A DNA stretch of 64,000 nt. Source: Octopus sinensis (Eukaryota). Numbering within the stretch: position 1 is the first letter of the stretch; the number at the start of each line of letters is the position of its first letter. Both the position numbers and the translations under genes were made by a program. The notes below the pieces were generated by a model. That model saw only the letters and a list, made by a program, of their open reading frames with translations. It did no database searches and had not been told where the DNA came from. Location: positions 1 to 64,000 of the forward strand of contig NW_021833293.1 in NCBI RefSeq assembly GCF_006345805.1, given 5' to 3'. Of the stretch, positions 19,093 to 52,079 are shown in pieces.

Positions 19093-19822
19093 ATTAATCA
19101 ATATCGGGTGGCAAAAAAATTCAACAGCAAAATTTAGGAACGGCCATAATAGGCCGTTCAACAACCACTAGAAATAGCAGCCAAGGCTTCAACCGCAAAA
19201 CAATATTAATTCCGTAAACCAGGAGAACATTTAAAAAACATTTACCCTGTAATACCTTATACAATGCATCGTTTCGTCTATTTTTTAATGGTAAATCAAC
19301 CTGATTCAATTAAATCAAGCTAATCTTCCATAGGCCAATAAATTCATCAGTAAGGTAAGCCAGACGGGACAGATATTTGCACGAGGCAGCACCACTACTG
19401 TCTCGGCTATATCTGACCTAAAATTTTCAAATCATCGTACTCGCGCCAAATTTATCGGCAGCAAATATAAGCTGCCGCTTCCATTTCGGAATTAAACAGA
19501 AAATTCATAATTAATCAATATAGGGTGGCAAAAAAATTCAGCAGAAATTATTTGCCACCAGCGGCCTAGTGGGAAAAAAGTAAATAGTCAGAGACCATTA
19601 ATAAATTCAACAGCAAAATTTAGGAACGGCCATAATAGGCCGTTCAACCCACTAACTATTTAAAAAATAGACGAAACGATGCATTGTATAAGGTATTACA
19701 GGGTAAATGTTTTTAAAATTTTCTCCTGGTTTACGGAATTAATATTGTTTTGCGGTTGAAGCCTTGGCTGCTATTTCTAGTGGGTTGAACGGCCTATTAT
19801 GGCCGTTCCTAAATTTTGCTGC
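19093..19822 (-). mobile_element. Non-coding hammerhead-containing element (~486-nt terminally redundant unit plus inverted fragment) in (TA)n
   Basis: TCAACAGCAAAATTTAGGAACGGCC is directly repeated at 19121 and 19607; 19659-19820 is the reverse complement of ~19125-19288; contains a hammerhead motif. Confidence 0.8.
19253..19357 (-). ncRNA. Type I hammerhead ribozyme motif (long loop II, one core-adjacent mismatch)
   Basis: Minus strand reads TACCTTA-CTGATGA-ATTTATT...AATAGAC-GAAA-CGATGCATT-GTA-TAAGGTA: 7-bp stem I, GUA triplet, near-palindromic stem III, and A10.1:C11.1 mismatch. Confidence 0.75.
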
Positions 19823-19906
<84 letters not shown>

Positions 19907-19910
19907 CTAC

Positions 19911-19951
<41 letters not shown>

Positions 19952-20480
19952 CCGATCCATTCTTTTTTCTTGGTTATATATATATGATAGGAATATGTTT
20001 CAAAAAGTAAATAGAAACACGTGGAACGGAAATGCGAGAAAGTGAGAAGAAAAACAGCGAAAATGCACATTGAATATCAAAATAATATATATAAAGGCTT
20101 TTTTTAATAAAAAGTAACGATAAAAATACAATTATATGAACTGAGGTAGAATTAAGTGTAATTAAATTCCTTATTTTGAATTGTTCAAGAGATTTCATGT
20201 CAAACCGGTGTCGTCTTTGCTGTTCACTGTCTTTGAATCCGCACCGATTATCAAACGTTGTTAGCTCTAACTAGTCCCTGAGTAGAAATATTGTGTAAGG
20301 GAGGTAAGTAGTTCTGGACGTGGGGCAATTACATTGTCTATTTAATTAAAAAATTCTATATGTGGCAGAAGATTGCTCGACATTTTAAAACTGATGTAAT
20401 ACTTAAAGTGTTTAATAAAATAAAGTAGCAGGAAACGATTGTACTACACTACATTGTATATCCTTGTTGCTTATTTTGAT

Positions 20481-20513
<33 letters not shown>

Positions 20514-20557
20514 TATATATACTATATATAATATTTATATTATACATATATATAATA

Positions 20558-20601
<44 letters not shown>

Positions 20602-20669
20602 CTAAAACATGGGTTCACTCTGTTAACTCCTGATTTGTTTTCTCTTTGACTTCCCAAAAAATCCCTTTT

Positions 20670-20708
20670 AATGTTTGATAAGATGGATACATCGAAACCG
20701 GTTATATT
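20670..20708 (+). ncRNA. Minimal type I hammerhead motif, U3-A8 variant
   Basis: AATGT-TTGATAA-GATG GATA CATC-GAAA-CCG-GTT-ATATT: stems I and II pair, stem III is the palindrome AACCGGTT. Confidence 0.7.
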
Positions 20709-22827
20709 TTAAATCACTCACTGTAACGAAAAGATTAAACATTCTCTAAAATATATCTCTGTGCCTTTTCCAATTTTATTTACATTTTAGCCATAATTTT
20801 TCATATGTATGGTCACTTAACCACTTTTCAATTATTTATATGTACACACACACATACACGCACACATACACACAAACACACATATACACACACGCACAGA
20901 CACACACATAAAGCCGTCTAATCTGAACTAATACCCGTTATATGCAATATGGAGCGCATTATCATTTCGTCTTTTGAGCTTCTTTCGTATTTAATGTTTC
21001 GCTTCTAAATGTATTGTGATTTGTGATTGGTAAATCGCTTTAACTTTATGGTGATATTATATTATTGGCTTCTGTTTGGCTGGGAAAACAATATAAAGAT
21101 CGCTTTGCAATAAAACTTAATGGTTTGCTAGATTCGTTAATCGTCTGACAAGCTTATTGCTCTATTTGTTTCGCCTGTTTTTAGTTACATTCCTGCTGCA
21201 ATCCTATGTAAATACTACCATTCCTCCCTGGATAAAATATAACTTTGAGGTGCTTGGTAAGATTTCATTGATATATCACTCATCGTAAACGTGTGACCAT
21301 ATTAGTATGATTATTCCATATGTTTATAATGTTTATAATTATTTCTTTACGGTTTTAGAGAGACATAGAGAATATTTATTTTCTATTTATATTTTGAGGT
21401 GAAATCTTCCTGAACCTAACACTGAAATATAAATATAATTAACTGCTATTCATGTAAATTACCTGGCTATAAAACGCCCAGTTTCCTGTTTAATTATGAA
21501 CTGTACCAGTGCTCCGTAAACATTCAGAGACTTACATGTACAGCATCAAGAAAGACGTGAAATATAATTGCCTGTTGTCATCACGTTAAATAGTAACATA
21601 TTTATGGAGAACAAAAGTGCATTTTCGAAGCTCTTCGTATTGGATTTTAAAAGAGAATCAGAGAAATTGTTTATGCTATTACCATCTGTCTGAGAAGTTA
21701 TTTACTATCTATTCCGATGTACATATTTTTGTACATATTTAAAAATACTTGCGTCATACTTTTATATAGCACGCGAAGACAACTGAGGTTATTTGATTTC
21801 TTCTTGTTAACGTTGTATTCAATGACATCAATGTTTTGGATCATCACAGGAGTCGGCATTTAGAGAATTATCAGTTGGGATCAGTCATTTGAGTATTCAG
21901 TTGTTTGATTAACTGAAATTCTACTCGTGAAGTCATCGAATGTTTTCATGCAATTCTCGTGCCAAATTACCTGTGCGTGATTTAACTCACTGTGATGAGT
22001 ACTAGTACGAATAAGGCAATATAGACATCTCGATAGATTCTACAAATTCTTCACCCCGAATGATGAATATTATTATTGGTATTGTTAATCCTTATAACAA
22101 AAGAGTGATTCTATATTTTCTGCAAATGACATCTTCTTTATCCTCTGCTTAGGCCTAAAAAACACCCAACCTACGGACAACGATTTGCAGACGCGACTCT
22201 GCAATCGTCTTAATTTTTAAAGTTACTGTGTTACTTTGAACACGTTATTCAATGTATCTTTCCCTTTTTAAGATGGTAGTGTGAGCTTTGAAAGAGATTT
22301 TAGTGTCATATCTAAGAGGTTCAATAAACTTCGTAAGGTGCTCAGATTAAAGCTTTGAGAATCAAGAACCAGTTCGTAGAAACATTGGTTTTGGCCTTGA
22401 TGTTGGAAGGATGCGAACCTATCGATCATTCAACAAATTTTCTGGCATATAAACAACTTCATTTAAGATTTTAGCGAAAAAAGCGCAAAACCGCTACCGA
22501 CAAGAATAACAACTCCAATACGATGATAGCCTCAACGCCTCTGATGTGAGTTCCACTCAATCAAAAATGGCATGAGGGTTATACAGAAATTTACAATGAA
22601 TAAATACATAAAAGAATGAATAAATGGGTAAATAAATAAATATATAAATGAAAGCATTCATTACAACAATAGAGGTAACAATAATAATGGTTGCAAAAAT
22701 AACAAACTATCGAAATTGAAAAATAGACGCAGGAATGCTGACGAAAGCAGTAGCAAACAGCAAATCTATACAAATATATTTGCAGCTATCTTATGCCATA
22801 TTTAACTTATTTCACTCTCATCATGTC

Positions 22828-22976
22828 TTCCCGTCATGCCTCACCAACACAAAGCATTATATTTTCCCCCTTCCGGCGATGCCTGAAGTAGTTTCCCGAC
22901 ATGCATCAGTAATCACAACTGTTTATTCGATTTCTGTCGGTTTCCGAGGATTAAAGTTATTTTTCCCGTCATGCCT
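22828..22976. promoter_or_regulatory. Cluster of four TTCCSGNNATGCMT motifs (Staf/ZNF143-site-like)
   Basis: Copies at 22828, 22871, 22893 and 22963 in the same orientation, separated by unrelated sequence. Confidence 0.4.
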
Positions 22977-23894
22977 TCTTATTCTAAATAACTCAATGTT
23001 CTTCAGCTTTCGGCAACGAATTGGGATTTTAGTGTTTTGTCAGCCATAACACGATTTAAGAAACACAATGCCTACTTAGAACCACCTCTGCCTAGACCAT
23101 AATACGATGGTGGATTATACGATAACGACGAGAGAAAAGTTGCTGGTATTAGTGTATTTGGACATGATTGTATTGTAAGTACAGGTGGCAGTTTAGGCAG
23201 CCTGATATTTCTTGATTTTTATTACCAATGACTGTGGCATAGTAGTTTTGCTGTTTAATTCACAATCCTGAAGTTGATGGCTCGATTCTCGAACTGGAAA
23301 GTACATTCTATTTTTAAGTAAGGGATTTCATTTATCATTGCTTAATAAAATTAACAAGTAAGTGCCAGAAATTTGATGTTGCAAAATTGAACCGACGTGG
23401 GACTGGTGTTTACTTAAGTGAAAAACCTTTTCCGCTATGTTTCGAAAGCTGGGATAAGGCCTAAATGAATTGGTCTGCAACTTCGATATAGAGTTGTACT
23501 TCTTAGATACAACCCCCACAGTATTTGTGTACATAAGCATATGCATACATGCACACATACACATATACACACACATATATATGTATATATATTTATGCAT
23601 AATTAATGGTAAAAACATTATAAAGATTTTTTCAATAGCCAGCATGCAATAAAAACCATCTAGGTAACGATTAATACTAATATATAATTATAACGATATA
23701 ATTATAATAGAGGGTGTTGATAAACAACACGAACATGTTAAAGACAGACATCAAATTGTGCTGAAAGCTCATCGGAGTGCAAATGTGGTTGTAGCGCCAT
23801 TTGGCTTTCATCTCTAGCGTTTTGGTATTGTTTATCAGCACCCTTTATTATAATAATATCTTTGTAATTATATATTAATATATAAATACACACA

Positions 23895-23940
<46 letters not shown>

Positions 23941-23942
<2 letters not shown>

Positions 23943-24231
23943 CACGTGATCATGTGACCGACCAGACCATCAGATGTTGTTACACATCGCTGGTCACAAT
24001 GCGTTCGCATTGTTTTAGCCTTCGAATGACGCCACACCGCTGGCTAAGCGAGCAGGCCAACAGAAGAAAGAGTGAGAGAAAGTTGTGGCGGAAGAGTACA
24101 GCACGGATCACCCCACCCTGCCGGAGCCTCGTGGAGCTTTTAGGTGTGTTCGCTCAATAAATACTCACAACGCCCGGTCTGGGAATCGAAACCGCGAATC
24201 TGCTGCCCTAACCACTAGGCCATTGCGCCTC

Positions 24232-24232
<1 letters not shown>
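23941..24232 (-). mobile_element. tRNA-derived SINE
   Basis: Minus strand begins GGAGGCGCAATGGCCTAGTGGTTAGGG...GGTTTCGATTCCC (A and B boxes); head-only copy at 52958-52995. Confidence 0.85.
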
Positions 24233-24311
<79 letters not shown>

Positions 24312-24739
24312 CAGGATTATCAGCGTCACGCAGTATTTAGGCATAAAGCTTTTACATATGAGGCGTGTTTTCTTCACTTATCACCCCTTTCTCCCTATAC
24401 GCATCATCAAAATCACTACGTTTACCACACCGCAATCACAACAAGCAGACACAAAATATTGACCAAAATGTTCACATTCCCAACCACAAAATTATGATAG
24501 TCGTCGTCGTCGTCATCATCATCATCATCGCCGCTATGATCAGCATCATAATACAAGTTTTCTGGATTAAGTGTCGTGTATATCATCACCACTTTGTACT
24601 GCAGCAATATAAAACAAAGTGTTTTCTTTTTTTTGCCTAATAACAAAACCTCTCTCCCTATCGTCCAGGAATCGCAACTACAACCTTACGATCACGTCAG
24701 CAATATTCTAAGCACTAAAACATACGTCTACACCCATAT

Positions 24740-24829
<90 letters not shown>

Positions 24830-25379
24830 GTTTTCGTTTGCATTCTCCCCAACCACTGCTTCCAGTCCGGGTTCTTTTTTTAAGTCTGCGCACCTCAGCG
24901 TTTCGGAAATAAGTGACTGATAGCGTAAGTTCCAGGCTTTTTAAAACAAGTGTACTTGGTTCGATTTGTTTGACTAAACCCTTCAAGGTGGTGCCGCAGA
25001 TATGACCGTTGTCCAATAAATGAAACAAGTAATAGGTAAAAATATATATTCTGCATAAAGGAACACGCGAATGCAGGAGAGCTGTGTGGACAGCTCAGAA
25101 AAGCGGGTAAAAGCAATAAACAATTCGAAAAAGCACTGCGAATCAAACCGGCTGAGTGCTCTGAACCATTAAGCTAAGAAATCCCTAGCAGTAGGCTCTA
25201 TATTTTTATAATGCTAAATAATAACTTGAAGCAAACCTATAAGTGCCTTATGTGTTGGTAATGTACATAAATAAAGGGATTCGCGAACGTAGGAAGCCTG
25301 CCAAGACAGTGTTAAAATCAAGTAAATAGCCGTTAGAATGGAGGTGTTCTTCTAAAGTGACCAATTTAGAAGAATTTAG

Positions 25380-25410
<31 letters not shown>

Positions 25411-25592
25411 TACATATATATATATTGCTGGCGTGTCTGTTTGAGATGAAGCTTGCTTGCTAACCACATGGATCCAGATACAATGCCATTACTTGCAGAC
25501 TCGGGCAAGTATCTTCAACTATAAGCTTGGGCCGCCTGGACTTGGTAGATTAAAACTGAAAGGGGCCTGACGTAAATATATATATATATATA

Positions 25593-25633
<41 letters not shown>

Positions 25634-25654
25634 AGTGTGAGTGTGTGTGTGTGT

Positions 25655-26173: not shown

Positions 26174-26209
26174 TTATTATAACCAGCTGGTTGCAATGCG
26201 ATATGCCAG

Positions 26210-27657
26210 CTGTAACGATATTCTGTAACGTATTTGAAAATGAACGATATTCTTTGTGTAGATTCACTTTATTGCATCGAGTTACGTAATTAATCTTACA
26301 TTCTATGGTGATCATAGTAGGGTGCAGAATCTAAACAACTGAGAAGAAATAACACAGAGAACCATCATGATTTCCTGTGTTCTCGTTCTGAAAGTTCAAA
26401 TGATCCATCAGGCCAAACGTCGGCATTTTATTGCCAACACAGTATTACGCACCTGGAAAGATGCATCATTACTCATGTCAATGACAAGGTTGCGCTCTGA
26501 TTTTTATCCAGGCATTGCAGTCCTACCTGGGCCAGTATATCCTGTCTGCCTTTCACTCGGCTTCATGTGTTGGTAGCGCAAACCTTCAGTTTTTTCCAGC
26601 ATTAAATTGCATGACGTCTTCAGCCCACCGGTATTTCGCATTCAACACATGTTGCATGTGCGCAGCATCTCCAGGGTTCTGTATCCTCTGATAAACATTT
26701 GTATCATCTCCAGAGGTAGCAAGGGTTGATCTCTGAGCAGCTGTGTGCATGCTTAATGTGAATAGCAGTGACCCCAAGAAAGTGCCCTGTAGGACACCAC
26801 TCATCATATGCTTTTCAATGGAGGTAGTCATGATGGGTATCACCATCTGGTTTCTGTCTTTTAGAAATTCGTATAGCCACGCCACAAGCTCCCCTACTAT
26901 GCTGAGATACGAGAACCATCTGTTGGTGGAGTGGCGCCCTACCTTGCAATATACAGAAGCAGTTTCTTTGGCATACATAATGGGGCTTTATGGTTTGATT
27001 TTATTTTTAATAACCCAGTTTTCTTGTATGCTCATTCTTTTTCCTTCTTTTTTCTTTTATTTCTTTCAGTCATTTCCATGCTGGAAATCTTCCATAAATA
27101 GTTTTTTATCGAAAAAAACCGGCCCCAGCACTTATTCTTTATAAGCTAGTAATTAATCTCTTTTGTCGAACCGTTGTGTTATACAGATATAATTACACCA
27201 ACATCGGTTGTTAAGCGATAATTGGGGTACAAACACAGACACAGGTAAATACACACACACACACACACATACACGCACACGCACATACACACACACACGC
27301 GCGCACGCACACACACACACGCACACACACACACACACACGATCAAAGGCTATAGTAGAAGACACTCACCAAAGGTGCCACGCAGTGGGACTAAACCCAG
27401 GCTGGGAAGAATGCTTCTTACCACACAGCCTCACCTGCGCCTCATGGGAGCGTTTCTGCTTTTCCTCAATATCTGTAGCGTTTTTTTTATCAGGCGAGAC
27501 CTTTTTCACTGTTTTGGCGGTTTTCAATCATTGTATGTCGTCTCTTAAAAAACTTCTCACACCTTGGGAATTTTGTAGGTATTTGCTACGCTGAAGGATC
27601 ATGCAAGGCGGATTTACAACAGATCTATCATAATATTCTTCGGATTTTAATAGAGAC
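26210..27657 (-). repeat. Left arm of a ~1.43-kb near-identical inverted duplication
   Basis: Reverse complement of 29081-30509 with only a few indels or substitutions; identical peptides appear on opposite strands in the ORF track. Confidence 0.96.
26586..26930 (-). pseudogene. Decayed CR1-group reverse transcriptase fragment (left arm)
   Basis: WLYEFLKDRNQMV...SGVLQGTFLGSLLF...GDDT...W...MQFNAGK; the YADD motif is degenerate. Confidence 0.85.
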
Positions 27658-29080: not shown

Positions 29081-30509
29081 GTCTCTATTAAAATCCGAAG
29101 AATATTATGATAGATCTGTTGTAAATCCGCCTTGCATGATCCTTCAGCGTAGCAAATACCTACAAAATTCCCAAGGTGTGAGAAGTTTTTTAAGAGACGA
29201 CATACAATGATTGAAAACCGCCAAAACAGTGAAAAAAGGTCTCGCCTAATAAAAAAAACGCTACAGATATTGAGGAAAAGCAGAAACGCTCCCATGAGGC
29301 GCAGGTGAGGCTGTGTGGTAAGAAGCATGCTTCCCAGCCTGGGTTTAGTCCCACTGCGTGGCACCTTTGGTGAGTGTCTTCTACTATAGCCTTTGATCGT
29401 GTGTGTGTGTGTGTGTGTGCGTGTGTGTGTGTGCGTGCGCGCGTGTGTGTGTGTATGTGCGTGTGCGTGTATGTGTGTGTGTGTGTGTGTATTTACCTGT
29501 GTCTGTGTTTGTACCCCAATTATCGCTTAACAACCGATGTTGGTGTAATTATATCTGTATAACACAACGGTTCGACAAAAGAGATTAATTACTAGGCTTA
29601 TAAAGAATAAGTGCTGGGGCCGGTTTTTTTCGATAAAAAACTATTTATGGAAGATTTCCAGCATGGAAATGACTGAAAGAAATAAAAGAAAAAAAGAAGG
29701 AAAAAGAATGAGCATACAAGAAAACTGGGTTATTAAAAATATAAAATCAAACCATAAAGCCCCATTATGTATGCCAAAGAAACTGCTTCTGTATATTGCA
29801 AGGTAGGGCGCCACTCCACCAAACAGATGGTTCTCGTAATCTCAGCATAGTAGGGGAGCTTGTGGCGTGGCTATACGAATTTCTAAAAGACAGAAACCAG
29901 ATGGTGATACCCATCATGACTACCTCCATTGAAAAGCATATGATGAGTGGTGTCCTACAGGGCACTTTCTTGGGGTCACTGCTATTCACATTAAGCATGC
30001 ACACAGCTGCTCAGAGATCAACCCTTGCTACCTCTGGAGATGATACAAATGTTTATCAGAGGATACAGAACCCTGGAGATGCTGCGCACATGCAACATGT
30101 GTTGAATGCGAAATACCGGTGGGCTGAAGACGTCATGCAATTTAATGCTGGAAAAAACTGAAGGTTTGCGCTACCAACACATGAAGCCGAGTGAAAGGCA
30201 GACAGGATATACTGGCCCAGGTAGGACTGCAATGCCTGGATAAAAATCAGAGCGCAACCTTGTCATTGACATGAGTAATGATGCATCTTTCCAGGTGCGT
30301 AATACTGTGTTGGCAATAAAATGCCGACGTTTGGCCTGATGGATCATTTGAACTTTCAGAACGAGAACACAGGAAATCATGATGGTTCTCTTGTGTTATT
30401 TCTTCTCAGTTGTTTAGATTCTGCACCCTACTATGATCACCATAGAATGTAAGATTAATTACGTAACTCGATGCAATAAAGTGAATCTACACAAAGAATA
30501 TCGTTACAG
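29081..30509 (+). repeat. Right arm of the inverted duplication (contains SINE 29297-29620 and an RT relic)
   Basis: Reverse complement of 26210-27657. Confidence 0.96.
29820..30161 (+). pseudogene. Decayed CR1-group reverse transcriptase fragment (right arm)
   Basis: Same RT motifs as 26586-26930. Confidence 0.85.
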
Positions 30510-31765: not shown

Positions 31766-31928
31766 GTATATATATATATATAATATATATATATATAGAA
31801 AATAGTAAGAGTGAAAAAACTACAGAAGGCTTAAATGTTAAAAAATATATATATTTGCGTCAATATGTCTGAAGAATATTAGAAAATTCAAAAATATTTT
31901 TTTTTTCTCTTATAATGACATAATTTAA

Positions 31929-31967
31929 AAGAAAGACCGGTTTCGCGTGTAGCTTTTCAAATTTCTT
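31929..31967 (-). ncRNA. Minimal hammerhead motif (U3-A8 variant) in the Penelope 3' repeat
   Basis: Minus strand AAGAAA-T-TTGAAAA-GC TACAC GC-GAAA-CCG-GTC-TTTCTT; palindromic stem III ACCGGT; one extra nucleotide before the core; stem II only 2 bp. Confidence 0.6.
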
Positions 31968-32345
31968 GCGACGTTATGTTTATGTTGAATAGAGTTATCG
32001 TTATTTTTATGTTCAGGAGAGTTCTAAATAAGGGGAGGTAGTGAGTGATTTCTTCCGGTGTAAGGGAGATAATCGGTTAAAAAATTTTTCCTTTCCCTTG
32101 GTGTGAATTTCTCTGTATCAGTATGTTCGGATGGTTGAATCTGGGCTTGTACTTTTCAATGAAGAATGTTTCCTTGTTTAGTCTAATTTGTGTTGATGAT
32201 CCGAAAGCACATTGGTAAAATGGAAAGATTAAAAATTGTGGTAGTAGTTGCTTTGCGCATTTCTCAATGTGCTCACTAAAAGGTATCATTCTATATTCTG
32301 GGAATGCAATCTGTTGTCGATGCAGTGTGCATCTACGTCTGAGTG

Positions 32346-33160
32346 ATAAAAACATATTGAACAGCATAAACCCAAATATACAGTTCATAATGGAATACAA
32401 CCAAAAGGAGCTCCCGTTCTTGGATATACTAATTAAAAAAATTAACCTTAAAATAGAAACAGACATCTTTTACAAAGCCACAGACGCCAAACAATAACTT
32501 CTTTTTAATTCATGCCACCCAAGACACACTAAAACAAACATCCCCTTCAACCTTGCAAGAAGGATATGCACAATAGTGTCAGAACAAAATACCAAGAACT
32601 TTAGACTGCAAGAACTCAAAAACACCCTAATTGACAGACATTACCCAGCTCAACTCATAGAGGATGGGATCAGACGTGCAACAGAAATCAACATAGAATC
32701 TTTAAGAAAAGTTCAACACAACAACACACCTTCCCCGAAAATACTACCTTACATATCTACATACAACCCCAGAAACAAAGAAGCCTTCACCATCATCACC
32801 CAGAATTTACCAATACTTCATAAAGACCCCAAATTAAAGGAAATTCTAAACATACACCAAATCATTAAAAGCTACAAACAGCCTAAATCACTTAAAAAGA
32901 TTCTCACAAAAGCAAAATTGTCTTCTGAAATTACGGATGCAAAAGTTAAAAAATGTGGTAGATCGAACTGTGCAACATGTCCTAACCTGCTAGAAGGATC
33001 AGAATTCCTCTTTAAAGAGGGACAGAAATTCAAGATCAAATCTAACTTTACTCATGCCTCTGAAAACATAATTTATGTCATAAAATGTTCGGGCTGCCAC
33101 CAAGACTACGTGGGTTCCACGGGACTATCACTCAGACGTAGATACACACTGCATCGACAA
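32346..33160 (+). pseudogene. Penelope-like RT thumb plus GIY-YIG endonuclease fragment (Neptune/Naiad-like)
   Basis: LNSINPNIQFIME...LPFLDI...TDIFYKATD, in-frame stop, SCHP...IPF...R, Cys linker KCGRSNCATC, then NIIYVIKCSGCHQDYVGSTG..LRRR. Confidence 0.92.
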
Positions 33161-33340
33161 GAGAAAAAAAAATTTTTTTCTTGAATTTTCTAATATTCTT
33201 CAGACATATTGACGCAAATATATATATTTTTTAACATTTAAGCCTTCTGTAGTTTTTTCACTCTTTACTATTTTCTATATATTCACCCACGTGCTTTCAC
33301 AAACCAACTTTCTTATCTATATATATATATATATATATAT

Positions 33341-35960: not shown

Positions 35961-36938
35961 AAACACATATACACATTTTAATACACATATCCATAGAAAT
36001 ATACATGCACACATACCTAGAAACATGCCCACATAATGCCATACATATATATAGCTACACATACATACATACACACACACATACATATATGAATGTTGAA
36101 TCCAATAGCACGTGATAGCTACTAATAACCAGTTCAACAAAGAGGTAAAGAAGACCTTCAATAACCGCGATGTAACCTACCATCTCGATAATTTCACATA
36201 TAAATAACTTAACAAGCTGTAACCGACTATTCCAAAATGTCAACAAGTGTTTAAACTTCCTACACTTCTAACTGACTCTATAATATTTTATATATACATA
36301 CACCCCCACCAACAAATTCCTCACATGCACATATATATGTTATATTATAATATTATATTATATATTATATATTATTATTATCTTATATTATATATATATA
36401 TATATAAATTTATATATAGAGGGCATTATACATACATGCCAGACGGCATTATACATACATGCCAAACGCTAAGAGGGACAATCAGTCATTTCTACCAAAA
36501 ATATTACTAATCCCACCGAATGCAATTTTTCAAAGTAAGACATTTAAAATATTAGTAATATTTTTGGTAGAAATGACTGATTGTCCCTCTTAGCGTTTGG
36601 CATGTATGTATAATGCCGTCTGGCATGTATGTATAATGCCCTCTATATATAAATTAATATGTTCAATAAGAAATAATTATTTTCGAAATTTTTTCTCTTA
36701 TGAGGTTTTTACGCTATATACCTGACAATTTCTTGTTAAGTTTTCCTTATTAAGTAGTTGTCCTTAATTGCTAAATTTTTATTCCGAAAAAACTTTACCT
36801 CTCCCGAAATGCAATTCGTAAAAGTTTGCCATTTACCCGATGTAATATATGTAAACTCAACCATGTGCTTCGTTGATGTTGATCAGTTAGCTGATCGGCT
36901 TAAGCGGGGCAGGGTCGTTGTTTATTTATAATACATTC

Positions 36939-36986
36939 AGGCCTGCTGATGATTACGTAAGTATGAAATCACTGTGATACAGGTCT
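36939..36986 (+). ncRNA. Type I hammerhead ribozyme, copy 1
   Basis: AGGCCTG-CTGATGA-TTAC GTAA GTAT-GAAA-TCAC T GTGA-TA^CAGGTCT; full conserved core, predicted cleavage after 36979 (AUA); U10.1:U11.1 mismatch. Confidence 0.88.
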
Positions 36987-37413
36987 ATATTTTTAAATGT
37001 CTTACTTTGAAAAATTGCATTCGATGGGATTAGTAATATTTTTGGTAGAAATGACTGATTGTCCCTCTTAGCGTTTGGCATGTATGTATAATGCCGTCTG
37101 GCATGTTATGTATAATGCCCTCTATTATAAATTAATATGTTCAATAAGAAATAATTATTTTCGAAATTTTTTCTCTTATGAGGTTTTTACGCTATCTACT
37201 GACAATTCTTGTTAAGTTTTCCTTATTAAGTAGTTGTCCTTAATTGCTAAATTTTTATTCCGAAAAAACTTTTCCTCTCCCGAAATGCAATTCGTAAAAG
37301 TTTGCCATTTACCCGATGTAATATATGTAAACTCAACCATGTGCTTCGTTGATGTGATCAGTTAGCTGATCGGCTTAAGCGGGGCAGGGTCGTTGTTTAT
37401 TTATAATACATTC

Positions 37414-37461
37414 AGGCCTGCTGATGATTACGTAAGTATGAAATCACTGTGATACAGGTCT
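37414..37461 (+). ncRNA. Type I hammerhead ribozyme, copy 2
   Basis: Identical to copy 1, 475 nt downstream; predicted cleavage after 37454. Confidence 0.88.
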
Positions 37462-37728
37462 ATATTTTTAAATGTCTTACTTTGGAAAATTGCATTCGGT
37501 GGGATTAGTAATATTTTTGGTAGAAATGACTGATTGTCCCTCTTAGCGTTTGGCATTATGTATAATGCCGTCTGGCATGTATGTATAATGCCCTCTATAT
37601 ATAAATTAATATGTTCAATAAGAATAATTATTTTCGAAATTTTTTCTCTTATGAGGTTTTTACGCTATCTACCTGACAATTTCTTGTTAAGTTTTTGGTT
37701 TCCTCATTAAGTAGTTGTCCTTAATTGC

Positions 37729-37781
<53 letters not shown>

Positions 37782-42371: not shown

Positions 42372-42467
42372 GCATATATATATATATATATATATATATA
42401 GATTTAATGAGTAAAACATCTAGTGTCTTGACTCTAAATGGGAACTAAGTTGTAACTATACTACTAA

Positions 42468-42688
42468 AATCTATTGACCAACGTAGGGTGGCAGCCTGTG
42501 TAGGACCATGTTACTAAATTTTTTCAGCAGGTTATCGACCCATGACCTGTCAAAAACATACTGCGAGCAAGTATTTTTCAGACACTGGTCGTGTGTCGAT
42601 AACCAGCTGGAAAAGTCGTTTTCCTGGGGTTAAAAACTAGTAACATGGTCCTACGCAGGACTGCCACCTTACGTTGGCAAATAGAATT
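42468..42688. mobile_element. Foldback/MITE-like ~220-bp imperfect palindrome
   Basis: CCAACGTAGGGTGGCAG.CCTGTGTAGGACCATGTTACTA pairs with TAGTAACATGGTCCTACGCAGGACTGCCACCTTACGTTGG; the inner arms GGTTATCGAC/GTCGATAACC also pair. Confidence 0.75.
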
Positions 42689-42861
42689 TACTATATAAAT
42701 GTATATATATAAATATTTGTGCACGCACACTCACATATACGTGTATATATATAAAGAGAGAGAGAGATAGAGAGAGAGATAAATACATATATAGTATGTA
42801 TATATGTATTACTCTTTCTCTTTCTCTGTCTCTACTGATTTATATATACATATACATATAT

Positions 42862-42927
<66 letters not shown>

Positions 42928-43480
42928 TATAAATAAGTGTATCATAGAGATACCACCATGCCAAATAACTGTCGAAACGCTGACCCTAAAAACACATTCA
43001 ATGTTCAAAATATAATTCATCACTGTATTCACTGCGGTGTTTATATTTGACCATATCGCGCTTGTGAGATGGTTGGCGGGCAATTTGTACATACGTGCAT
43101 AATGATATATGTATGGACGTTCGTTTATGTAAGTATAACTTATGTTCTGTATATATATATTTTTTTATTTATTTGCCCATCTGATATATTCAACTGACGA
43201 AGGCAGAGCTTATTTGTAGCAAAGGCAGAAATCCAGGATCTTGAATTATGCAGTAAAATCTTTTTTTCTAGTTTCTTTTGTTTCTCTGTCTTATCTCATG
43301 GCGCGATTTGGACATTTAAGGTGGTTTTTAGGGTTAGGGTTTTGACTGCTATTTCGGCATAGTGGAATCTCTAAGATACCCTTATTTATAATTTTAAATA
43401 ATTGTTACCTTTGCATGGTATTTATTCCTATGCTGGCCACTTGATGATATCGATATTTAAATATCGATATTATCCTTATT

Positions 43481-43530
<50 letters not shown>

Positions 43531-44640: not shown

Positions 44641-44834
44641 AACGAAGATAAAATAGATACCCAGTCCATCTTGTTTATTCGGATGTCAATTCTCCTCCGA
44701 CTATATCACAATATATCACCATCATTCATTCATTCATATACATTTACTGACTAACATTTTTATCTATTTATTGACTTTTATCTCGTTCATATTTCTTTCT
44801 TTTTTACAACCACATTTCATACTGATAAACCTAA

Positions 44835-44887
<53 letters not shown>

Positions 44888-45020
44888 TATATATATATGC
44901 ATATAATGACATATATCTGTGTCTATATTCATACGTACATATATATGATATATATGTATGTATATACAACATATATATATATATATAACATTATATATAT
45001 ATATATATATATATATCTAC

Positions 45021-45063
<43 letters not shown>

Positions 45064-46680
45064 ATATATATATATATATATGCATGTGTATATATGTGTG
45101 TGTGTACGTATATGTAGAAACCATATATCAGATAGATATAGCCTCCTAATAAATGTATTTTCCAATATTATTAATTTGCCCTCTTTTTTTTAATATCTTC
45201 TTTATATTTTAAGATATATCATAATATATCTGTATTTTGTTCTTTCGTTTTTCTTTTCTGTTATATTTCAGTATTTATCAAATATTTCTTTGTTGACCAA
45301 ACGCAAGCTCGACACTCTGTCCAACTTTGGTGTATTCTTTGCCACATTGTTGTTTATGACAGATAAAATCTGTCGGGAGCGACAATACTACACACCGTCA
45401 CTTACACACACACACACACACACACGCGAGCACACACATACACACAGAGGTGTGTATGTGAAAGAAATATGTATGAAATAGAAGGATGTAGATTCTGATT
45501 GTTAAATGTCCAATCACACGCATAATATTTATATATCTCTATAGGTATATCTATGTGTATCTATGTATACACAGATACACATACACACGCTCACATGCAT
45601 ATACGTATGAATTGAGACAGCGATAAGGAAAGAGAGAGATAAAGAGAGAACCTGATAAATAGGTAGATAGGCAAGGAAAAGGATATAGAGATAATTTACT
45701 AAATCAATAGAAATACTGATAACTAGCTAGATAGATAAACTGAAAACATCGACGAAGAATTCAATTTACAGTTTTCGGGTTCTTTGGTGCGATTTTGAGT
45801 TGATAACTTGTTTCTGGACCCAAGGCTGTCTAGATATGAGGGAAAGTGTTTCTGCATATATAACAGTTTGTTCTGTATACGAATGTAAGTACATAGGCTG
45901 TGCTATAGAACTATACATATGTCTGTCTTTTGCTGTTTATATTTTGTACTGTCGTTACTGTGCTGTTTTTGTTACCATTTTTACCCCTCCGCAAAAAAAT
46001 CTCAAATTTTATTTAATTTGATTTTCGTGGGAAGGAAAATTTAATTGAAGTCATGTATCGCCTTGACTTTCGAAACGTGGAGTAGATGAAATTAAGGCGA
46101 CTGAAGAAGGGGAATTTTCCTTGTTTTGTATGTCCTGTACTCTATTTTTACGTTGTTTTAAAAAAATGCCCATTTCTTTGGTTTTCTGTTTATGTTTTCG
46201 TTTCTCATTGTGTTCGACGTTTATTTGGTGTCCTGTACCCATATATGCATGTAGAGGTAGGTATGTACATATATGTATGTATATATGCATATGTTTTATT
46301 TATTTATTAATTATATATATATATATATATAAAGTAAATAAGATCCGTGCTACTTATGTTTCATAGCGAGCGGAACCTCGGAAGTGGTAAATATACAAGC
46401 GATGTGTATTTCGCAGTCTTCTCGCCAGGCCAAGGGTATCTTGATTAAGCGTATTTTCCGTATGTTATCATGTACCTCTTTGTGACAAAGTAAACTTCAT
46501 TTAATGGAGATACCATTCCTTTGATAAGTAGTCTACAGTATACACCTCGAGTGGATATTTAAGACTTCCGATGTTCCACTCGCTGCTGCCCAAAACCTTT
46601 GAGTTGATTTGTAGGACGGACATTGAGAGTAGCCAAGCGTTTTCTCTCTCTCTCTCTCTCTTTCTCGCTTCCACTCTCTT

Positions 46681-46730
<50 letters not shown>

Positions 46731-46761
46731 AGATATAATATATATATAATTATATATATTA

Positions 46762-46968
46762 TAAAGTTAATCAAACAAGAAAGCACACAAAAACAACAAC
46801 GCGAGGAAGTGGAACAAATATAGGTGTTATTGAACGCTCAGGAAAGAAGGAAAGAAGGAGGGTTTAACGTTTCGAGCGGAGCTCTTCGTCGGAAACATAG
46901 AAGAAGGAAAGATCCAGAGAAGGGAAGACAGAGGAAAAAATCGCCAACGGTACACACGCGGTCACATT
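46762..46968 (-). mobile_element. ~210-bp Penelope pLTR-like mini-element with mutated minimal hammerhead (46862-46896)
   Basis: Minus strand GTTT-CCGACGA-A-GAGC TCC GCTC-GAAA-C-GTT-AAAC; homologous to 49496-49704. Confidence 0.7.
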
Positions 46969-47445
46969 TTGAAATATATATATATATATTCTGTTGTGTC
47001 TGGGGAGAGTCATTTTCTTTTTGTGTCTTATATTCTAACACACTCACCGGTAAAATTTCCACTTTTTTCGTATTTTTATTTTTATGTATAAATCTATGTG
47101 TATGATGGAGACTGTTGTCAGTTTCGACATATGTGGATCAGACAACCTACTCTTTCTTTGTGAGTTATAATGCTGAAATCGAATGTGACGTTTGAGGCCC
47201 ACTAATGATTTGCAAGATCCTGCAAGTATGAAGATTACAGGTCAGTGCAGGTGGTATATTTGTAGCCACTTTTCCCCTTTGTCTTATACACTAAAGCCTG
47301 TTATTGTTGGTTGCAACAATGTTTCTCATTTTGATACATGTATGTATTTCTATCTACCTATCTATCTACCCCTCTATCTATTTATCTATATATCTATCTA
47401 TCTATCTATCTATTTATCTATCATTCTCTCTCTTTCTATCTCTCC

Positions 47446-47476
<31 letters not shown>

Positions 47477-47482
47477 AATCAT

Positions 47483-47520
<38 letters not shown>

Positions 47521-49404
47521 GCATGTGTGTGTGTGTGTGTTTACTTCACCCTCCCTACACGGTTCAGTAAGAGAACTGATAGAGTAAGATATATATATAT
47601 ATATATATATATTCATGTATATTTACATAGACGCACACATACAAACACACATATGTGTGTGTGTGTGTGTGTGCATGTATACATACATACCTATATACAT
47701 ATCAATGCAATACGCTTCAGAATATTTGAAAATTTCAGCTGATAAACTTCCTTTTAGTTAAGGTTCATCATGCATATCTATTAAAATCTTAAGTGTATGT
47801 ATATGTGTATGCGTGTGTGTGTGTGTGGGGGGGTGCTAATGTGTTTGTGTGTGTGTGTGTGCGCGTGTGTGTTTTTTGTTGTTTGTGTCACGTGCATGTT
47901 TTCGTTCGTATATGCGTGAGTATGTTTGTCTATCGAATGCGATAAAGACGGTGAATGTTGTGTAGATATCTTAATAGACATAATTTAGCAAGATATATAT
48001 ACTTAAATGAATTTAAGAAAAAATTATTTAGTAAGGAAGAAGGTTGTTTCGTCAATAAATATATATATTTTTTTTAAAATCCAATTTCTTCCACATTTAA
48101 CATTAAATATTTTCTGTCTCTGTAATATAATGGAACGCAATTCTCATATGTTAGAACGCAATCAAATCCCAGTTAAGCATGAAAATGAAAATTGAAATTA
48201 CGGGAACAAAGATGTAGCACTCAAGGGGATACTTTTTCCAGTGAGGAAATATCGAGAGTAAAGTTTAATTGCGTCTTAAAAATGCAGAATATATTGATAA
48301 AGAACATTTATTAGTGTATCGTAAGTATATGGCATGTTAATGGAAGAAAACGTGCTCAGTTTCACTTGCATAACGAAGTTTTCTTATTTCTATCTATCTC
48401 TAAAATTTCTTTATTTTAAAAGCACAAGGGCTGAAATTTTCGGGAAGAGTGGTGGTCGAGTACATTGAACACAGATCACGGATAATTTTTATTTTATCGA
48501 TTTCGAATAGCTGACAAGCAAATTCAGCGTTGGCTGAATTCGAACTGAGAATGTAAACCAAGAAAAACAATGGTGCGAAGCATTTTGGCCGGTCTACAAA
48601 CAATTCACGGCGTCTTTTTGTCTTTAATAGTAATACATGAGCTATAACGTATTATTATTACTAAATCGTTAGCACGCCAAGCAAAATACTGTGTGGCATT
48701 TCGCCCATCTTCATGGTCTGATTTCAAATTTCACCGACGTTGACTGCCTTTCATCCTTCCGTAGCCGATAATATGAGTACCAGTGGAGAACTGAGTCGAT
48801 GTAATGGATGTACACCCACGATCAAAATTGCAAGCCTGGTGCCAAAGTTTGAAATCAGTAATACATTAGATATACTATATAAAATGATCATGAAATTGTT
48901 ATGTCCCGAAGAATTTAACTTACATCGGAGAAATTCGCAACACATATGACGGACTCTGTCAAGAAAGAATTATTATCAACTGATACCATTAATTCTGCTG
49001 CGACAATCGTATGACAATAAAATTATCGATGGATAAGTCTCCTGATGACAATATAAACCAGCTTTGCAACTTGAAATATCTAATGAGATGTATTGAATGC
49101 TACTTTGTCGTTAATAGGCGAAAAGATAATGGACGACTCTCTGGTCATGCAGGTTGGTTTCAAACGCCGAGCTGGACTTTGTCAAATCGTAGTGTGCACC
49201 GAGCAAAATTAAGTAGTATATATCGCGTTGACTCAATATGTGGGTCAGTTGAACATACATGTATTTTAATAGCGTATGTGTGAACACACTGACTCAAAAG
49301 GGAGATATCTAACTATATGTCTATCTATCTATCTATCACTTTTTCCCCCTCTATCTTTCTTCATCTGTGTGAGCGTGCGCGTCTATAAAGACCATCCCAA
49401 TATA

Positions 49405-49473
<69 letters not shown>

Positions 49474-49495
49474 GTGTGTGTGTGTGTGTGTGTGT

Positions 49496-49704
49496 AATGT
49501 GACCGCGTGTGTAACGTTGGCGATTTTTTTCCTCCGTCTTCCCTTCTCTGGATCTTTCCTTTTCCTATGCTTCTGACGAAAAGCTCCGCTCGAAACGTAA
49601 AACCCTCCTTCTTCCCTTCCTTCCTGACCGTCCAATAATACTATATTTGTTCCACGTCCTCGCGTTGTTGTGTTTTCTCTTTGTGTTTTCATGTTTGGAT
49701 TACT
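49496..49704 (+). mobile_element. ~210-bp Penelope pLTR-like mini-element with minimal hammerhead (49569-49603)
   Basis: GCTT-CTGACGA-A-AAGC TCC GCTC-GAAA-C-GTA-AAAC; flanked by (TG)n and (TA)n. Confidence 0.7.
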
Positions 49705-49723
49705 ATATATATATGTATATATG

Positions 49724-49778
<55 letters not shown>

Positions 49779-49913
49779 ATTTATATTATATAGAGGGTGC
49801 TACTATTCATAGATACCGCACGTTAGGAGGGACCGTTGCGGTCAAAACTACTAAAATAAACAAATTGTACCGAATGCAAAACTTCAAAGCAAGTCATTTA
49901 AAAAAAGAGTTTA

Positions 49914-49977
49914 GTTACATATCACCTGTGATTTCGCAATTAATGCAGAATATCCATTCCATGTTCATCAGTGCAAC
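49914..49977 (-). ncRNA. Type I hammerhead motif
   Basis: Minus strand GTTGCA-CTGATGA-ACA...TGC-GAAA-TCAC AG GTGA-TA-TGTAAC. Confidence 0.78.
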
Positions 49978-50313
49978 AAACTCAAGATATATAAGAAAAA
50001 ACATAACGTTACAAGCTCGATAGCCAACCGTAGAATTCGTCGTAGCATGTACGAATGTTTATCTTTACATATCTATGAAAATGGCGGGCTTATTCGCAAT
50101 GCATTTCGGTAACAAATTGCTTACTCGGAACAAAAAGTCAGTATTGAACTATTCCGGTGAAAAATATAAATTAACAATTGAGGATAAAATTGAGGATAAA
50201 ACCCCGCCATTTTCATAGATATGTAAAGGTAAACATTCGTACATTCTACGACGAATTCTACGGTTGGCTGTGGGGTTTGTAATGTTATGTTTTTTCTTAT
50301 ATGTCTTGAGTTT

Positions 50314-50377
50314 GTTGCACTGATGAGCATAGAATGCATATTCTGCATTAATTGCGAAATCACAGGTGATTTATAAC
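50314..50377 (+). ncRNA. Type I hammerhead motif
   Basis: GTTGCA-CTGATGA-GCA T AGAAT GCAT ATTCT GCATTAAT TGC-GAAA-TCAC AG GTGA-TT-TATAAC. Confidence 0.75.
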
Positions 50378-52079
50378 TAAATTCTTTTTTTAAATGACTT
50401 GCTTTGAAGTTTTGCATTCGGTACAATTTGTTTATTTTAGTAGTTTTGACCGCAAGGGTCCCTCCTAGCGTGCGGTATCTATGAATAGTAGTACCCTGTA
50501 TATAATATAAATAAATGTTTTCAAATTGGAAAGATTTACGGATTTTTTCTCTTACGAGGTTTATCACGCTAACTGCTGATAATTTCTTATAAAGATTTTA
50601 TCCTCAATTTTGAATTAATATATATATATATATATATCTTCCACCTTTGTCCATGTTTGGCTCTTTGCATTGGAAATTTCAACTGCTACTGGAGGCTTAG
50701 CGGCAACATAATGTAAAGAGAACACTGCTGTAGTGCGATACAGTTAAGTAAAGGGTACATTTCTCTATAATATGATGCAAAAACTATTTCTCTGCCTATC
50801 CATTGACTAGGGTTATAATGTAGTGAATGGGGGTGCTGAAATGCAGTGCTGTCATGAAGAGTTTCTGAGTTCAATTCCAGTCAAGGCATTTAGGTGATTC
50901 ACAAAACATGTGGAAAAGGCTAAGTCGTATACAACCGATGAAGTGAAAGCAACAGTCAAGATAAGGACACCACTCCGACTAATACGTAATACAAATTCTT
51001 CTTCTCAGAGCTATAGAACTGTATTATTGTGTTACAAGTTCAACCAGGTGAGAATAGGAGAGATGACTTAAAAATTCAGTTGAGTAAGCTTTGAATCTAA
51101 GCGATTTTTTTTACCTCAATACACACTCACACTTATCTTCCTTTCCCCCGAATGTGTTAAAATTTGGTAAGTTATTATCGTACTTACCGACTCTATTGCA
51201 CGTTAGCGTTTGAAAAATCCGGAGCCATAAAAAAATAGACAATTGATTTTACAACATTCAATTAATAAAATTACTTCATTGCTGGTTTATAGTTTTATAT
51301 TTTCTGCTAAGAGGGGTATAAAATTATAAATATGCAGTCCTTTTACCTTGGATAACTAAATATTCACCTTGGCATTTTCTTCCATTGCGTACATTGCACC
51401 TTTCAAAATGGAAATGGTAGTAAAAACGAGTACGCCTCACAATAATAATGTTAAATCTTCATGCCATCCCTTATCCCCCAGGAATTTTCAAACATGAAAA
51501 TAAATGTAAAATGAAAATAGCAATGAATCAAAGCAACAAACTTGCAGTACAAGCACGGAACTTTAACTTTGAAGTAGCATAACAAAGGATACTGCTGTAA
51601 ACAACTTAAAGGAGAAACGCAATAAGATCATTTGAAATACCGCGATCAGTAGCCACATTTCGTAACTTGCAAATACTTTGGTCTTCCACTCTGTATTATT
51701 GTCCCTATTTTCTACGCTTTCTATAACTCATCTTAACACCAATTTTTGAATGACAAACGACATTGGTTTCTTAAGCACAAAATACTAAACGGCTGCGACA
51801 GTTTCTGCTGAGGTTCCACTTTGTTTACGCCCATCATTTTGATTGGTTTATTGTTCAAATTTATTATTTGTGGTATGTGACTGGTCGGTTATTCAGATAT
51901 CCCCTCTGAAAGGTGTGATAGATTAAACCATTGGCCTCTCCAAAACAATGGAAGACGGAGACGTTCTGCTTAGATACAAAAGCGAATAACATTTACATAT
52001 AAAGACATATATACATACATACATACATACACACTACCCTAGCATGGCTGAAGTCTAATGAGTGAAACAAGTAAATGGT

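What the first reader, a model, noticed from the sequence alone, without database searches (positions are those of the whole stretch)
19093..50620. Three insertions share one architecture: a (TA)n-embedded, ~480-nt circularly permuted hammerhead unit with an inverted end
Seen: elements at 19093-19822, 36405-37732 and 49787-50620 are all non-coding, carry one hammerhead per unit, have unit lengths of ~486, 475 and ~494 nt deduced from terminal redundancy, include an inverted partial copy, and lie in (TA)n. The coding Penelope-like relic at 31796-33318 has the same inverted-end, (TA)n-embedded layout and its own hammerhead. Established: Penelope-like elements carry hammerheads in pseudo-LTRs and often integrate with an inverted 5' pLTR. 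Inference: these form a class of non-autonomous ribozyme RNA circles mobilised in trans by Penelope RT/GIY-YIG, with conserved size despite sequence divergence. This is the best candidate for an undescribed system in the window.
Basis: partly seen in the sequence, partly recalled or inferred. Interest (0 to 1): 0.85.

Follow-up and report, generated by a model that had tools for sequence, protein, structure and literature searches.

The report
Ribozyme repeats hitchhiking on Penelope retrotransposons
These are non-coding repeats of about 480 bases that each carry a hammerhead-ribozyme motif and sit in TA microsatellites with one inverted end; they are likely 'retrozymes', a known kind of genomic parasite, probably copied around by the enzymes of Penelope-like retrotransposons, and their ends would give a direct way to test that proposed partnership.

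Summary
The observation mostly holds. A (19093-19822), B (36402-37733) and C (49780-50620) are non-coding, flanked by (TA)n, have an inverted arm and carry type I hammerhead motifs. Unit lengths are 486, 475-478 and ~494 nt. Corrections: B and C are homologues (~70% identical), so size conservation rests on two lineages; every window hammerhead departs from the canonical fold; the coding relic D has only a decayed hammerhead and no reliable homology to the units. A fourth relative, E (42918-43487), was missed. The unit looks like an independent family: the head-to-tail read-through is homologous in B and C, is bridged by contigs from two other studies (one a closed 481-nt cycle), and no Penelope ORF remnant was found. 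The insertions bear Penelope marks: an inverted arm stopping 135-160 nt past the cleavage site, as in D, and a second arm ending further on. The class is in print: animal non-LTR retrozymes as non-autonomous Penelope derivatives (PMC7229834; bioRxiv 10.64898/2026.07.22.740005). What these copies add is a mechanistic footprint and longer 'tails' (~90-120 nt versus 30-40). Transcription, self-cleavage, circular RNA and the partner enzyme remain untested. Verdict: new member of a known kind.

The parts
19093..19654 (-). Element A, long (HHR-sense) arm: about 1.3 turns of a 486-nt unit; the outer copy has a ~70-nt deletion; ends at the distal site in (TA)n
19253..19357 (-). Element A type I hammerhead: core at 19350, H17 at 19260, 7-bp stem I, 68-nt stem II region with an A.C closing mismatch, near-palindromic stem III
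19660..19822 (+). Element A inverted arm: 3' half of the hammerhead through to the proximal site, 135 nt past H17; 2 substitutions in 162 against the long arm
36402..36549 (-). Element B inverted arm, no hammerhead core, ends at the proximal site
36551..37733 (+). Element B long arm: 2.5 head-to-tail units (478 and 475 nt), ends at the distal site in (TA)n
36939..36986 (+). Element B hammerhead 1: core 36946, H17 36979; U.U at the base of stem II here, A-U in many family copies
37414..37461 (+). Element B hammerhead 2: core 37421, H17 37454
49780..50200 (-). Element C arm 1: begins at a copy of the distal site, reads through the unit boundary and a hammerhead (core 49971, H17 49920), ends at the proximal site
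50203..50620 (+). Element C arm 2: decayed hammerhead (core 50320), ends at the distal site; 19 substitutions in 314 against arm 1
42918..43009 (-).
43010..43487 (+). Element E long arm with a decayed hammerhead (core 43194, H17 43240); distant homologue of C, in register at the core and the distal end
   Evidence: (z=12.1)
31791..32349 (-). Relic D inverted arm: GIY-YIG C-terminus (stop 32079-32077), 3' UTR, decayed hammerhead (H17 31935), ends 144 nt past H17 without the tail
32339..33318 (+). Relic D sense arm: RT C-terminal part, C-x4-C-x2-C linker, start of GIY-YIG (74% identical to P0001 aa 320-594), internal deletion at ~33160, then 3' UTR and a ~36-nt tail into (TA)n

Best explanation
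A, B, C and E are non-coding insertions of ~480-nt hammerhead-bearing units in TA microsatellites, and they are likely animal non-LTR retrozymes copied in trans by the reverse transcriptase/GIY-YIG protein of a Penelope-like element. Shown in the sequence: a closed non-coding unit, one type I hammerhead motif per unit, (TA)n on both sides, and two arms of opposite orientation that end at two fixed sites of the unit (135-160 nt, and a further ~90-120 nt, past the cleavage site). Inferred steps: (1) tandem copies are transcribed into multimeric RNA, and the hammerhead may cut this to monomers that a host ligase may circularise (from PMC7229834; untested here); (2) a PLE protein, probably of the Neptune/Nematis type like relic D, nicks both strands of a TA tract; (3) each nick primes reverse transcription internally on the RNA, one at the distal and one at the proximal site (by analogy with Anolis PAc in vitro, PMC11167929), giving a tailed arm and a tail-less inverted arm that join head to head; (4) the RT reads through the unit boundary, giving more-than-unit and tandem copies that seed new source loci. 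I put a monomeric circle as the template at about 0.45 and an uncut multimer at about 0.55.
For: Unit is an entity of its own: the sequence just past the distal site is homologous in B and C (score 43; 0 of 500 shuffles reach it), and C's arm 1 starts with a copy of the distal site (0 of 500), so the head-to-tail joint predates ~30% divergence. Contigs of two other studies bridge that joint: X9 record 22, and X14 record 9, 511 nt holding the whole unit plus wrap, i.e. a 481-nt closed cycle if k=31. The unit is held by 20 of 22 listed runs, 9 studies, 6 organism labels. 4626 and 1168 distinct contigs were laid in X1 and X8, all 30 bins covered, and the share running on into unlike sequence was 0 in both (X1 may be the source sample). 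No PLE coding remnant: 56 related PLE proteins gave best E 0.008-0.019 per element, on short, scattered hits on either strand, against 5e-144 for D. PLE footprint: H17 to inverted-arm end is A 135, B 158 (135 without a 23-nt duplication), C 145, E 160, coding D 144. In A, B, D and E (4 of 4 with unequal arms) the longer arm carries the tail. An independent (TA)n junction at the proximal site appears in X9 (loose end behind 36654). Inverted 5' copies, tails and (TA)n bias are described PLE marks (PMC8557442 passages). Common family variants close hammerhead helices: T36953A in 57% of X1 and 22% of X8 summed depth, T36984C in 49% of X1. A and B units fold as circles at z=-5.4 against 30 shuffles each. 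Both B tandem copies share A at 36860, where 94% (X1) and 99.9% (X8) of family depth has C: one template, or a local duplication.
Against: No partner identified: D's 3' UTR is not reliably similar to the units (15 of 400 and 6 of 400 AT-matched control windows score as high; nhmmer none at E<0.05), and none of 80 related coding loci matched a unit convincingly (best E 0.002, 44 nt). Every window hammerhead is non-canonical, none of three calls to Rfam found one, and the predicted minimum-energy folds are not the full hammerhead fold. In the 2026 preprint 8 of 9 predicted retrozyme dimers did not cleave in vitro; in PAc, hammerhead cleavage was not needed for insertion. Tails are longer than the 30-40 nt typical of PLEs. 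One quarter of the circle (upstream of the hammerhead) was not significantly similar between B and C when tested alone (229 of 500 shuffles). Short contigs could hide a minority of copies joined to an ORF: 107 of 4626 and 57 of 1168 contigs lie only partly on the unit, and 89 loose ends were not shown. Only one unit of B was laid on runs; A, C and E were not.
Confidence: 0.77

Rival explanations
1. The units are pseudo-LTR pieces of a coding PLE whose master copy has tandem non-coding pLTRs; A, B, C and E are its 5'-truncated insertions, mobilised in cis, with no independent life.
For: Same hammerhead-to-end spacing as coding D. PLE insertions are heavily 5'-truncated and form partial tandems with inverted arms (PMC8557442, PMC8969392 passages). 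The window also holds ~200-nt solo hammerhead pieces (H1, H2) that look like such truncations. ORF-linked minority copies cannot be excluded from short contigs.
Against: The head-to-tail joint is conserved between B and C and bridged in two other studies. No coding remnant in up to 1182 nt of arm. Share running on unlike is 0 in both DNA-type runs. None of 80 related coding loci had two detected hammerheads within 1 kb (23 of 80 had a sense-strand one), though those loci are distant relatives from other hosts.
Confidence: 0.12
2. The units are non-autonomous retrozymes, but the enzyme is not a D-like C-terminal-EN PLE; it is a Naiad-type PLE or a LINE.
For: No sequence link to D. Naiads also target (TA)n and make inverted arms and tails (PMC8557442 passages). 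LINE-like RT fragments occur in the window (RVT_1 E 0.0012).
Against: PMC8557442 says cephalopod Naiads are long inactivated and lack canonical hammerheads (relevant only if the host is a cephalopod, which is inferred). B's arms differ at only 2 of 147 sites, so it is young. No poly(A) or clear TSD at the ends. Geometry matches D.
Confidence: 0.07
3. The units are a satellite amplified at DNA level (unequal exchange, repair-mediated fold-back in fragile TA tracts), or the inversions are assembly artefacts; the hammerhead is a passive relic.
For: B's tandem copies could come from local duplication (shared rare variant). The window has other fold-backs, including a 99.6% identical 4-kb one. Single-base indels between B copies look like read errors. 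The 2026 preprint itself discusses satellite-type expansion.
Against: Arms differ by up to 14 of 92 sites, so they are not read artefacts. Arm ends fall on homologous sites in diverged elements and in an independent run. Elements are dispersed, each in its own TA tract.
Confidence: 0.04

Closest known systems
Animal non-LTR retrozymes (Cervera & de la Pena 2020, PMC7229834; Li, Clavereau & Pollet 2026, bioRxiv 10.64898/2026.07.22.740005)
   Same: Non-coding, low-GC (33-37%) unit with one type I hammerhead; monomers to short tandems; high copy; predicted self-paired circle; co-occurs with PLEs. B's U.U at the base of helix II matches the axolotl HHR_Amex2 description.
   Different: Units of 475-494 nt exceed the 2020 range (150-450) but lie within the 2026 range (51-972). 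Inverted arms, two fixed end sites and TA targeting were not reported for retrozymes in the parts I read. RNA and cleavage not shown here. No cephalopod case found.
Penelope-like elements with C-terminal GIY-YIG and a Zn-finger-like linker (Neptune/Nematis type; PMC8557442); Anolis Poseidon PAc mechanism (PMC11167929)
   Same: Inverted 5'-truncated arm, tail at one end, partial tandems, microsatellite targets, hammerhead upstream of the 3' end; two internal start sites would explain the tail.
   Different: A, B, C and E encode nothing; their tails are ~87-121 nt rather than 30-40 nt; the start sites lie in non-coding sequence, whereas PAc's lie inside the ORF. D is the coding member.
Putatively non-autonomous Chlamys PLEs such as MRC1 (PMC8557442 passage)
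   Same: Non-coding PLE parasites with pLTRs and multicopy head-to-tail insertions.
   Different: Those are algal, mostly lack canonical hammerheads, and share 3' sequence with their partner; no such shared 3' end was found here.

Membership tests
Animal non-LTR retrozyme | One type I hammerhead motif per unit | tested here: met
   Cores with stems I and III in A, B (x2), C arm 1 and E; each copy is non-canonical at the base of stem II
Animal non-LTR retrozyme | [quoted passage not shown] | tested here: met
   Met by B only (36946, 37421); A, C and E are monomer-type copies, 1 of 4
Animal non-LTR retrozyme | No protein-coding capacity | tested here: met
   Longest sense stop-free stretch 62 aa; C's 158-aa antisense frame has no Pfam match; no PLE remnant
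Animal non-LTR retrozyme | Unit of a few hundred bases, GC under 50% | tested here: met
   475-494 nt; GC 0.33 (B) and 0.37 (A); above the 2020 range, within the 2026 range
Animal non-LTR retrozyme | Multi-copy family beyond one locus | tested here: met
   B unit in 20 of 22 listed runs from 9 studies; thousands of variant contigs; A, C and E not tested
Animal non-LTR retrozyme | Lack of PBS and PPT | not tested
   No dedicated search run; no LTR-type layout seen
Animal non-LTR retrozyme | Expressed as linear and circular RNA | not testable with these tools
   Only assembled contigs were available; they cannot show strand, ends or circularity
Animal non-LTR retrozyme | Self-cleavage as monomer or dimer | not testable with these tools
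   Folding only; needs in vitro transcription
Autonomous PLE (for A, B, C, E) | ORF with RT and GIY-YIG | tested here: not met
   met, as a broken fragment, only by D
PLE-type insertion (works like) | Inverted 5'-truncated arm next to the main copy | tested here: met
   A, B, C, D, E: 5 of 5
PLE-type insertion (works like) | Tail at one end only, 30-40 nt | tested here: inconclusive
   One-sided extension in 5 of 5; length 36 in D but 101 (32 in the deleted copy) in A, ~121 in B, ~104 in C, ~87 in E
PLE-type insertion (works like) | Microsatellite (TA)n target bias | tested here: met
   8 of 8 ends of A-D within 14 nt of a (TA)>=5 run; background 10.4% within 20 nt
Neptune/Nematis PLE (for relic D) | C-terminal GIY-YIG with a Cys linker between RT and EN | tested here: met
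   C-x4-C-x2-C precedes the GIY-YIG match in frame 32498-33184; full-length relatives carry RVT_1 and GIY-YIG
Neptune/Nematis PLE (for relic D) | RT phylogeny within the clade | not tested
   No named reference sequences were fetched

The most novel reading that the evidence does not exclude
A long-lived lineage of ~480-nt hammerhead RNA circles (successive subfamilies E, C, B, plus an unrelated lineage A of the same size) is copied by a Penelope-type RT that primes both target strands on one circle at two conserved start sites ~90-120 nt apart. This would be direct genomic footprint evidence for how animal retrozymes are mobilised, with circle size and start-site spacing fixed by the enzyme.
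Probability: 0.3. Interest if true: 0.6.

Novelty: new member of a known kind. Interest (0 to 1): 0.4.

Why it matters
Which enzyme moves animal retrozymes is still argued from co-occurrence, shared hammerheads and pLTR phylogeny (PMC7229834; 2026 preprint, which says the mechanism remains to be elucidated). Here non-coding units carry the physical marks of PLE integration beside a coding relic with the same hammerhead-to-end spacing. That names two candidate RT start sites and a TA target that can go straight into the published PLE in vitro assay. It would also add an abundant, apparently unannotated repeat family in what is probably an octopus genome (host inferred, not established). It is not a new kind of system.

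Tried and rejected
No whole genome is held, so the genome-wide test of unit length, inverted ends and TA targets could not be run. No RNA holder was listed among the runs; runs labelled 'RNA?' are guesses, so nothing is claimed about transcription. The 'goes back 478' joint lies at my arbitrary cut in the unit and shows only continuity there, not circularity. Summed contig depth (about 3e5-1.5e6 over most bins in X1) is not a copy number, and the dip in X8 at 36703-36766 was not interpreted. No listed variant fell in the hammerhead core, but with 21 variable places in 478 nt (X1) that is expected about half the time, so it is not used. Rfam found no hammerhead. A B/C motif scan of metagenome contigs found 0 matches. 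Viral contigs gave no relative of D. An idea that A shares its two end motifs with B/C in swapped order was tested and dropped: best p=0.041 among 24 pairs. Weak D-to-unit similarity (z 3.4-4.5 against shuffles) was rejected after AT-matched controls. F as a relative of A did not reach z>3. A CTGAAGA...GAAA motif at 31869/33203 lies antisense to D's ORF and did not pass the descriptor. Place and sequence look-ups of earlier findings returned nothing. Supplements of the 2026 preprint are closed and may bear on unit sizes and end structures.
Full report
Scope and host. The window is microsatellite-rich animal DNA. The host is probably an octopus: an Octopus bimaculoides protein is among the relatives of relic D (P0051, 56% over half the query), and a 62-nt repeat at 18224-18347 resembles an octopus SINE as I recall it (memory, no call). 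This is an inference. No whole genome is held. I name the elements A (19093-19822), B (36402-37733), C (49780-50620), D (31791-33318, coding relic) and E (42918-43487, new).

1. The observation. Self-alignment shows each element as two arms in opposite orientation between (TA)n tracts. All 8 outer ends of A-D lie within 14 nt of a (TA)>=5 run, against a background of 10.4% within 20 nt. A's unit is 486 nt, and its outer copy has lost ~70 nt between two short similar words. B has 2.5 tandem units with periods 478 and 475. C's unit is ~494 nt, deduced from the overlap of its arms. A strict type I hammerhead descriptor found 3 cores (A, and B twice) against a mean of 0.05 in 100 shuffles. C's two cores appeared only when relaxed. 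All window copies are non-canonical: A.C or U.U at the base of stem II, or a broken stem I. Rfam found none, and predicted minimum-energy folds are not the full hammerhead. D is a PLE fragment: 56 proteins of 400-2000 aa matched at E<=0.001, the best 73% identical, carrying RVT_1 and GIY-YIG. D's hammerhead keeps the GAAA-CCGG-UC motif common in its relatives but has a decayed core and is deleted from the sense arm.

2. B and C are homologous (z=19-23; 253/374 and 278/392 aligned columns). A matches neither. E has the same layout, a decayed hammerhead (core 43194, 6-bp stem I), and aligns with C in register (z=12.1; hammerhead-to-proximal segment 0 of 500 shuffles, but its other two segments were not significant, 44 and 33 of 500). 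Arm divergence is 2/162 in A, 2/147 in B, 19/314 in C and 14/92 in E, which suggests repeated insertion over a long time. Size conservation therefore rests on two lineages, and E gives only a lower bound of 478 nt.

3. Is the unit independent of a coding element? Three of four segments of the circle are significantly similar between B and C, including the one just past the distal end site (0 of 500 shuffles each); the fourth, upstream of the hammerhead, was not significant alone (229 of 500). C's arm 1 begins with a copy of the distal site (0 of 500). So the head-to-tail joint is ancestral, not a chance tandem of truncated copies. tblastn of all 56 PLE proteins gave only short scattered hits on A, B and C (best E 0.008-0.019), against 5e-144 on D. 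The B unit is held by 20 of 22 listed runs from 9 studies and 6 organism labels. I laid 4 of those 20 on one unit (36575-37052). X1 (possibly the source sample) and X8 gave 4626 and 1168 contigs covering all 30 bins, with a share of 0 running on into unlike sequence. X9 record 22 bridges the distal site, and X14 record 9 (511 nt) holds the whole unit plus wrap, which equals a closed 481-nt cycle if contigs overlap by 30 letters (my inference from k=31). That cycle fits a circular RNA, a multimer or low-depth DNA alike. Limits: 107 and 57 contigs lie only partly on the unit and 89 loose ends were not shown, so a minority of ORF-linked copies is possible. Among 80 related coding loci from metagenomes, 23 had a sense-strand hammerhead, none had two within 1 kb, and none matched a unit convincingly.

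4. The Penelope footprint. The inverted arm ends 135 (A), 158 (B; 135 without a 23-nt duplication), 145 (C), 160 (E) and 144 nt (coding D) past the cleavage site. The other arm runs on by 101 (A; 32 in its deleted copy), ~121, ~104, ~87 and ~36 nt. Both end sites are homologous in B and C. In A, B, D and E the longer arm carries the extension; C's arms are about equal. X9 shows an independent (TA)n junction at the proximal site. PMC8557442 (abstract, introduction, passages) describes inverted 5'-truncated copies, 30-40-bp one-sided tails and microsatellite bias as PLE marks, and a Cys linker in Neptune and Nematis, which D has. PMC11167929 (first three of four parts read) shows a PLE protein cutting and extending both strands of AT-rich DNA, starting at two internal RNA sites that delimit the tail, with no need for hammerhead cleavage. 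Against: D's 3' UTR is not reliably related to the units, so the partner is unnamed.

5. Mechanism. Shown: anatomy, end sites, TA flanks, family abundance. Inferred: transcription of tandem copies; optional self-cleavage and ligation; PLE nicking of both strands in (TA)n; priming at the distal and proximal sites; head-to-head joining; read-through of the unit boundary. Common family variants close stem II (T36953A: 57% of X1, 22% of X8 depth) and strengthen stem I (T36984C: 49% of X1, 0 in X8), and A and B fold as circles at z=-5.4 (30 shuffles); both fit selection on the RNA but do not prove it. B's tandem copies share a base that 94-99.9% of family depth lacks (36860), which fits one template or a local duplication. 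Circle versus uncut multimer is open (about 0.45 to 0.55).

6. Comparison with what is known. PMC7229834 (abstract, first two of three parts of Results, Discussion) defines animal non-LTR retrozymes, shows circular RNAs in coral, mussel and axolotl, and names PLEs as the likely mobiliser. bioRxiv 10.64898/2026.07.22.740005 (first three of five parts: introduction to discussion) reports units of 51-972 bp, co-occurrence with PLEs and kinship with pLTRs, with 1 of 9 tested dimers cleaving. PMC4209133 (first two of four parts) notes opposite-strand hammerhead pairs 100-700 bp apart and proposes circles as more-than-unit templates. PMC8969392 and PMC8490949 were seen as passages only. Searches for octopus plus hammerhead ribozyme, retrozyme plus cephalopod, 'non-autonomous Penelope' and combined terms listed no paper devoted to these families or to inverted, tailed retrozyme insertions; the library lacks most subscription papers. 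Two earlier AI notes from other genomes describe tRNA-bearing units with similar marks; they are unchecked leads.

7. Verdict. Observation partly confirmed; interpretation partly supported. Most likely non-LTR retrozymes mobilised by a PLE (0.77). New member of a known kind; interest 0.4, because the two fixed end sites and the TA target make the proposed retrozyme-PLE partnership directly testable.

Noticed in passing
window 42918-43487: Element E: a further TA-embedded, inverted-end, hammerhead-bearing relative of C, older than B and C; folded into this report.
   Followed up: yes
window 49496-49705 (+) and 46768-46968 (-): Two 87.5% identical ~200-nt pieces with a minimal PLE-type hammerhead (core CTGACGA or a decayed form, 2-nt helix III) ending in or near (TA)n; likely truncated 3' ends of another PLE family.
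   Followed up: partly
window 52739-52922: Minimal fold-back G in (TA)n: 55-nt identical arms and a ~67-nt one-sided tail; same layout as the elements, no detected homology to them.
   Followed up: partly
window 42400-42697: Fold-back F between TA-rich tracts, arms about 75% identical, one arm ~60 nt longer; shares a short word with A's end but homology was not significant.
   Followed up: partly
window 26243-27657 and 29081-30505: Large near-perfect (99%+) inverted duplication of LINE-like and SINE-like pieces around a 1.4-kb spacer; recent event or assembly artefact.
   Followed up: no
window 1-10759: 41-nt satellite, about 262 copies, 90% matches.
   Followed up: no
window 53465-53601 and 54005-54140: Inverted pair (85% identical) around a (TA)n tract, possibly an old MITE or fold-back.
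   Followed up: no
runs X9 and X14, loose ends at 36989/37021: Both runs hold a further family sharing about 33 nt downstream of the hammerhead with B and a similar helix III; X8 has loose ends resembling C's helix III, suggesting intermediate subfamilies.
   Followed up: no
L016:2558-2690, L018:2832-2960: Related coding PLEs from other hosts also end in (TA)n roughly 55-95 nt after their hammerhead cleavage site.
   Followed up: no
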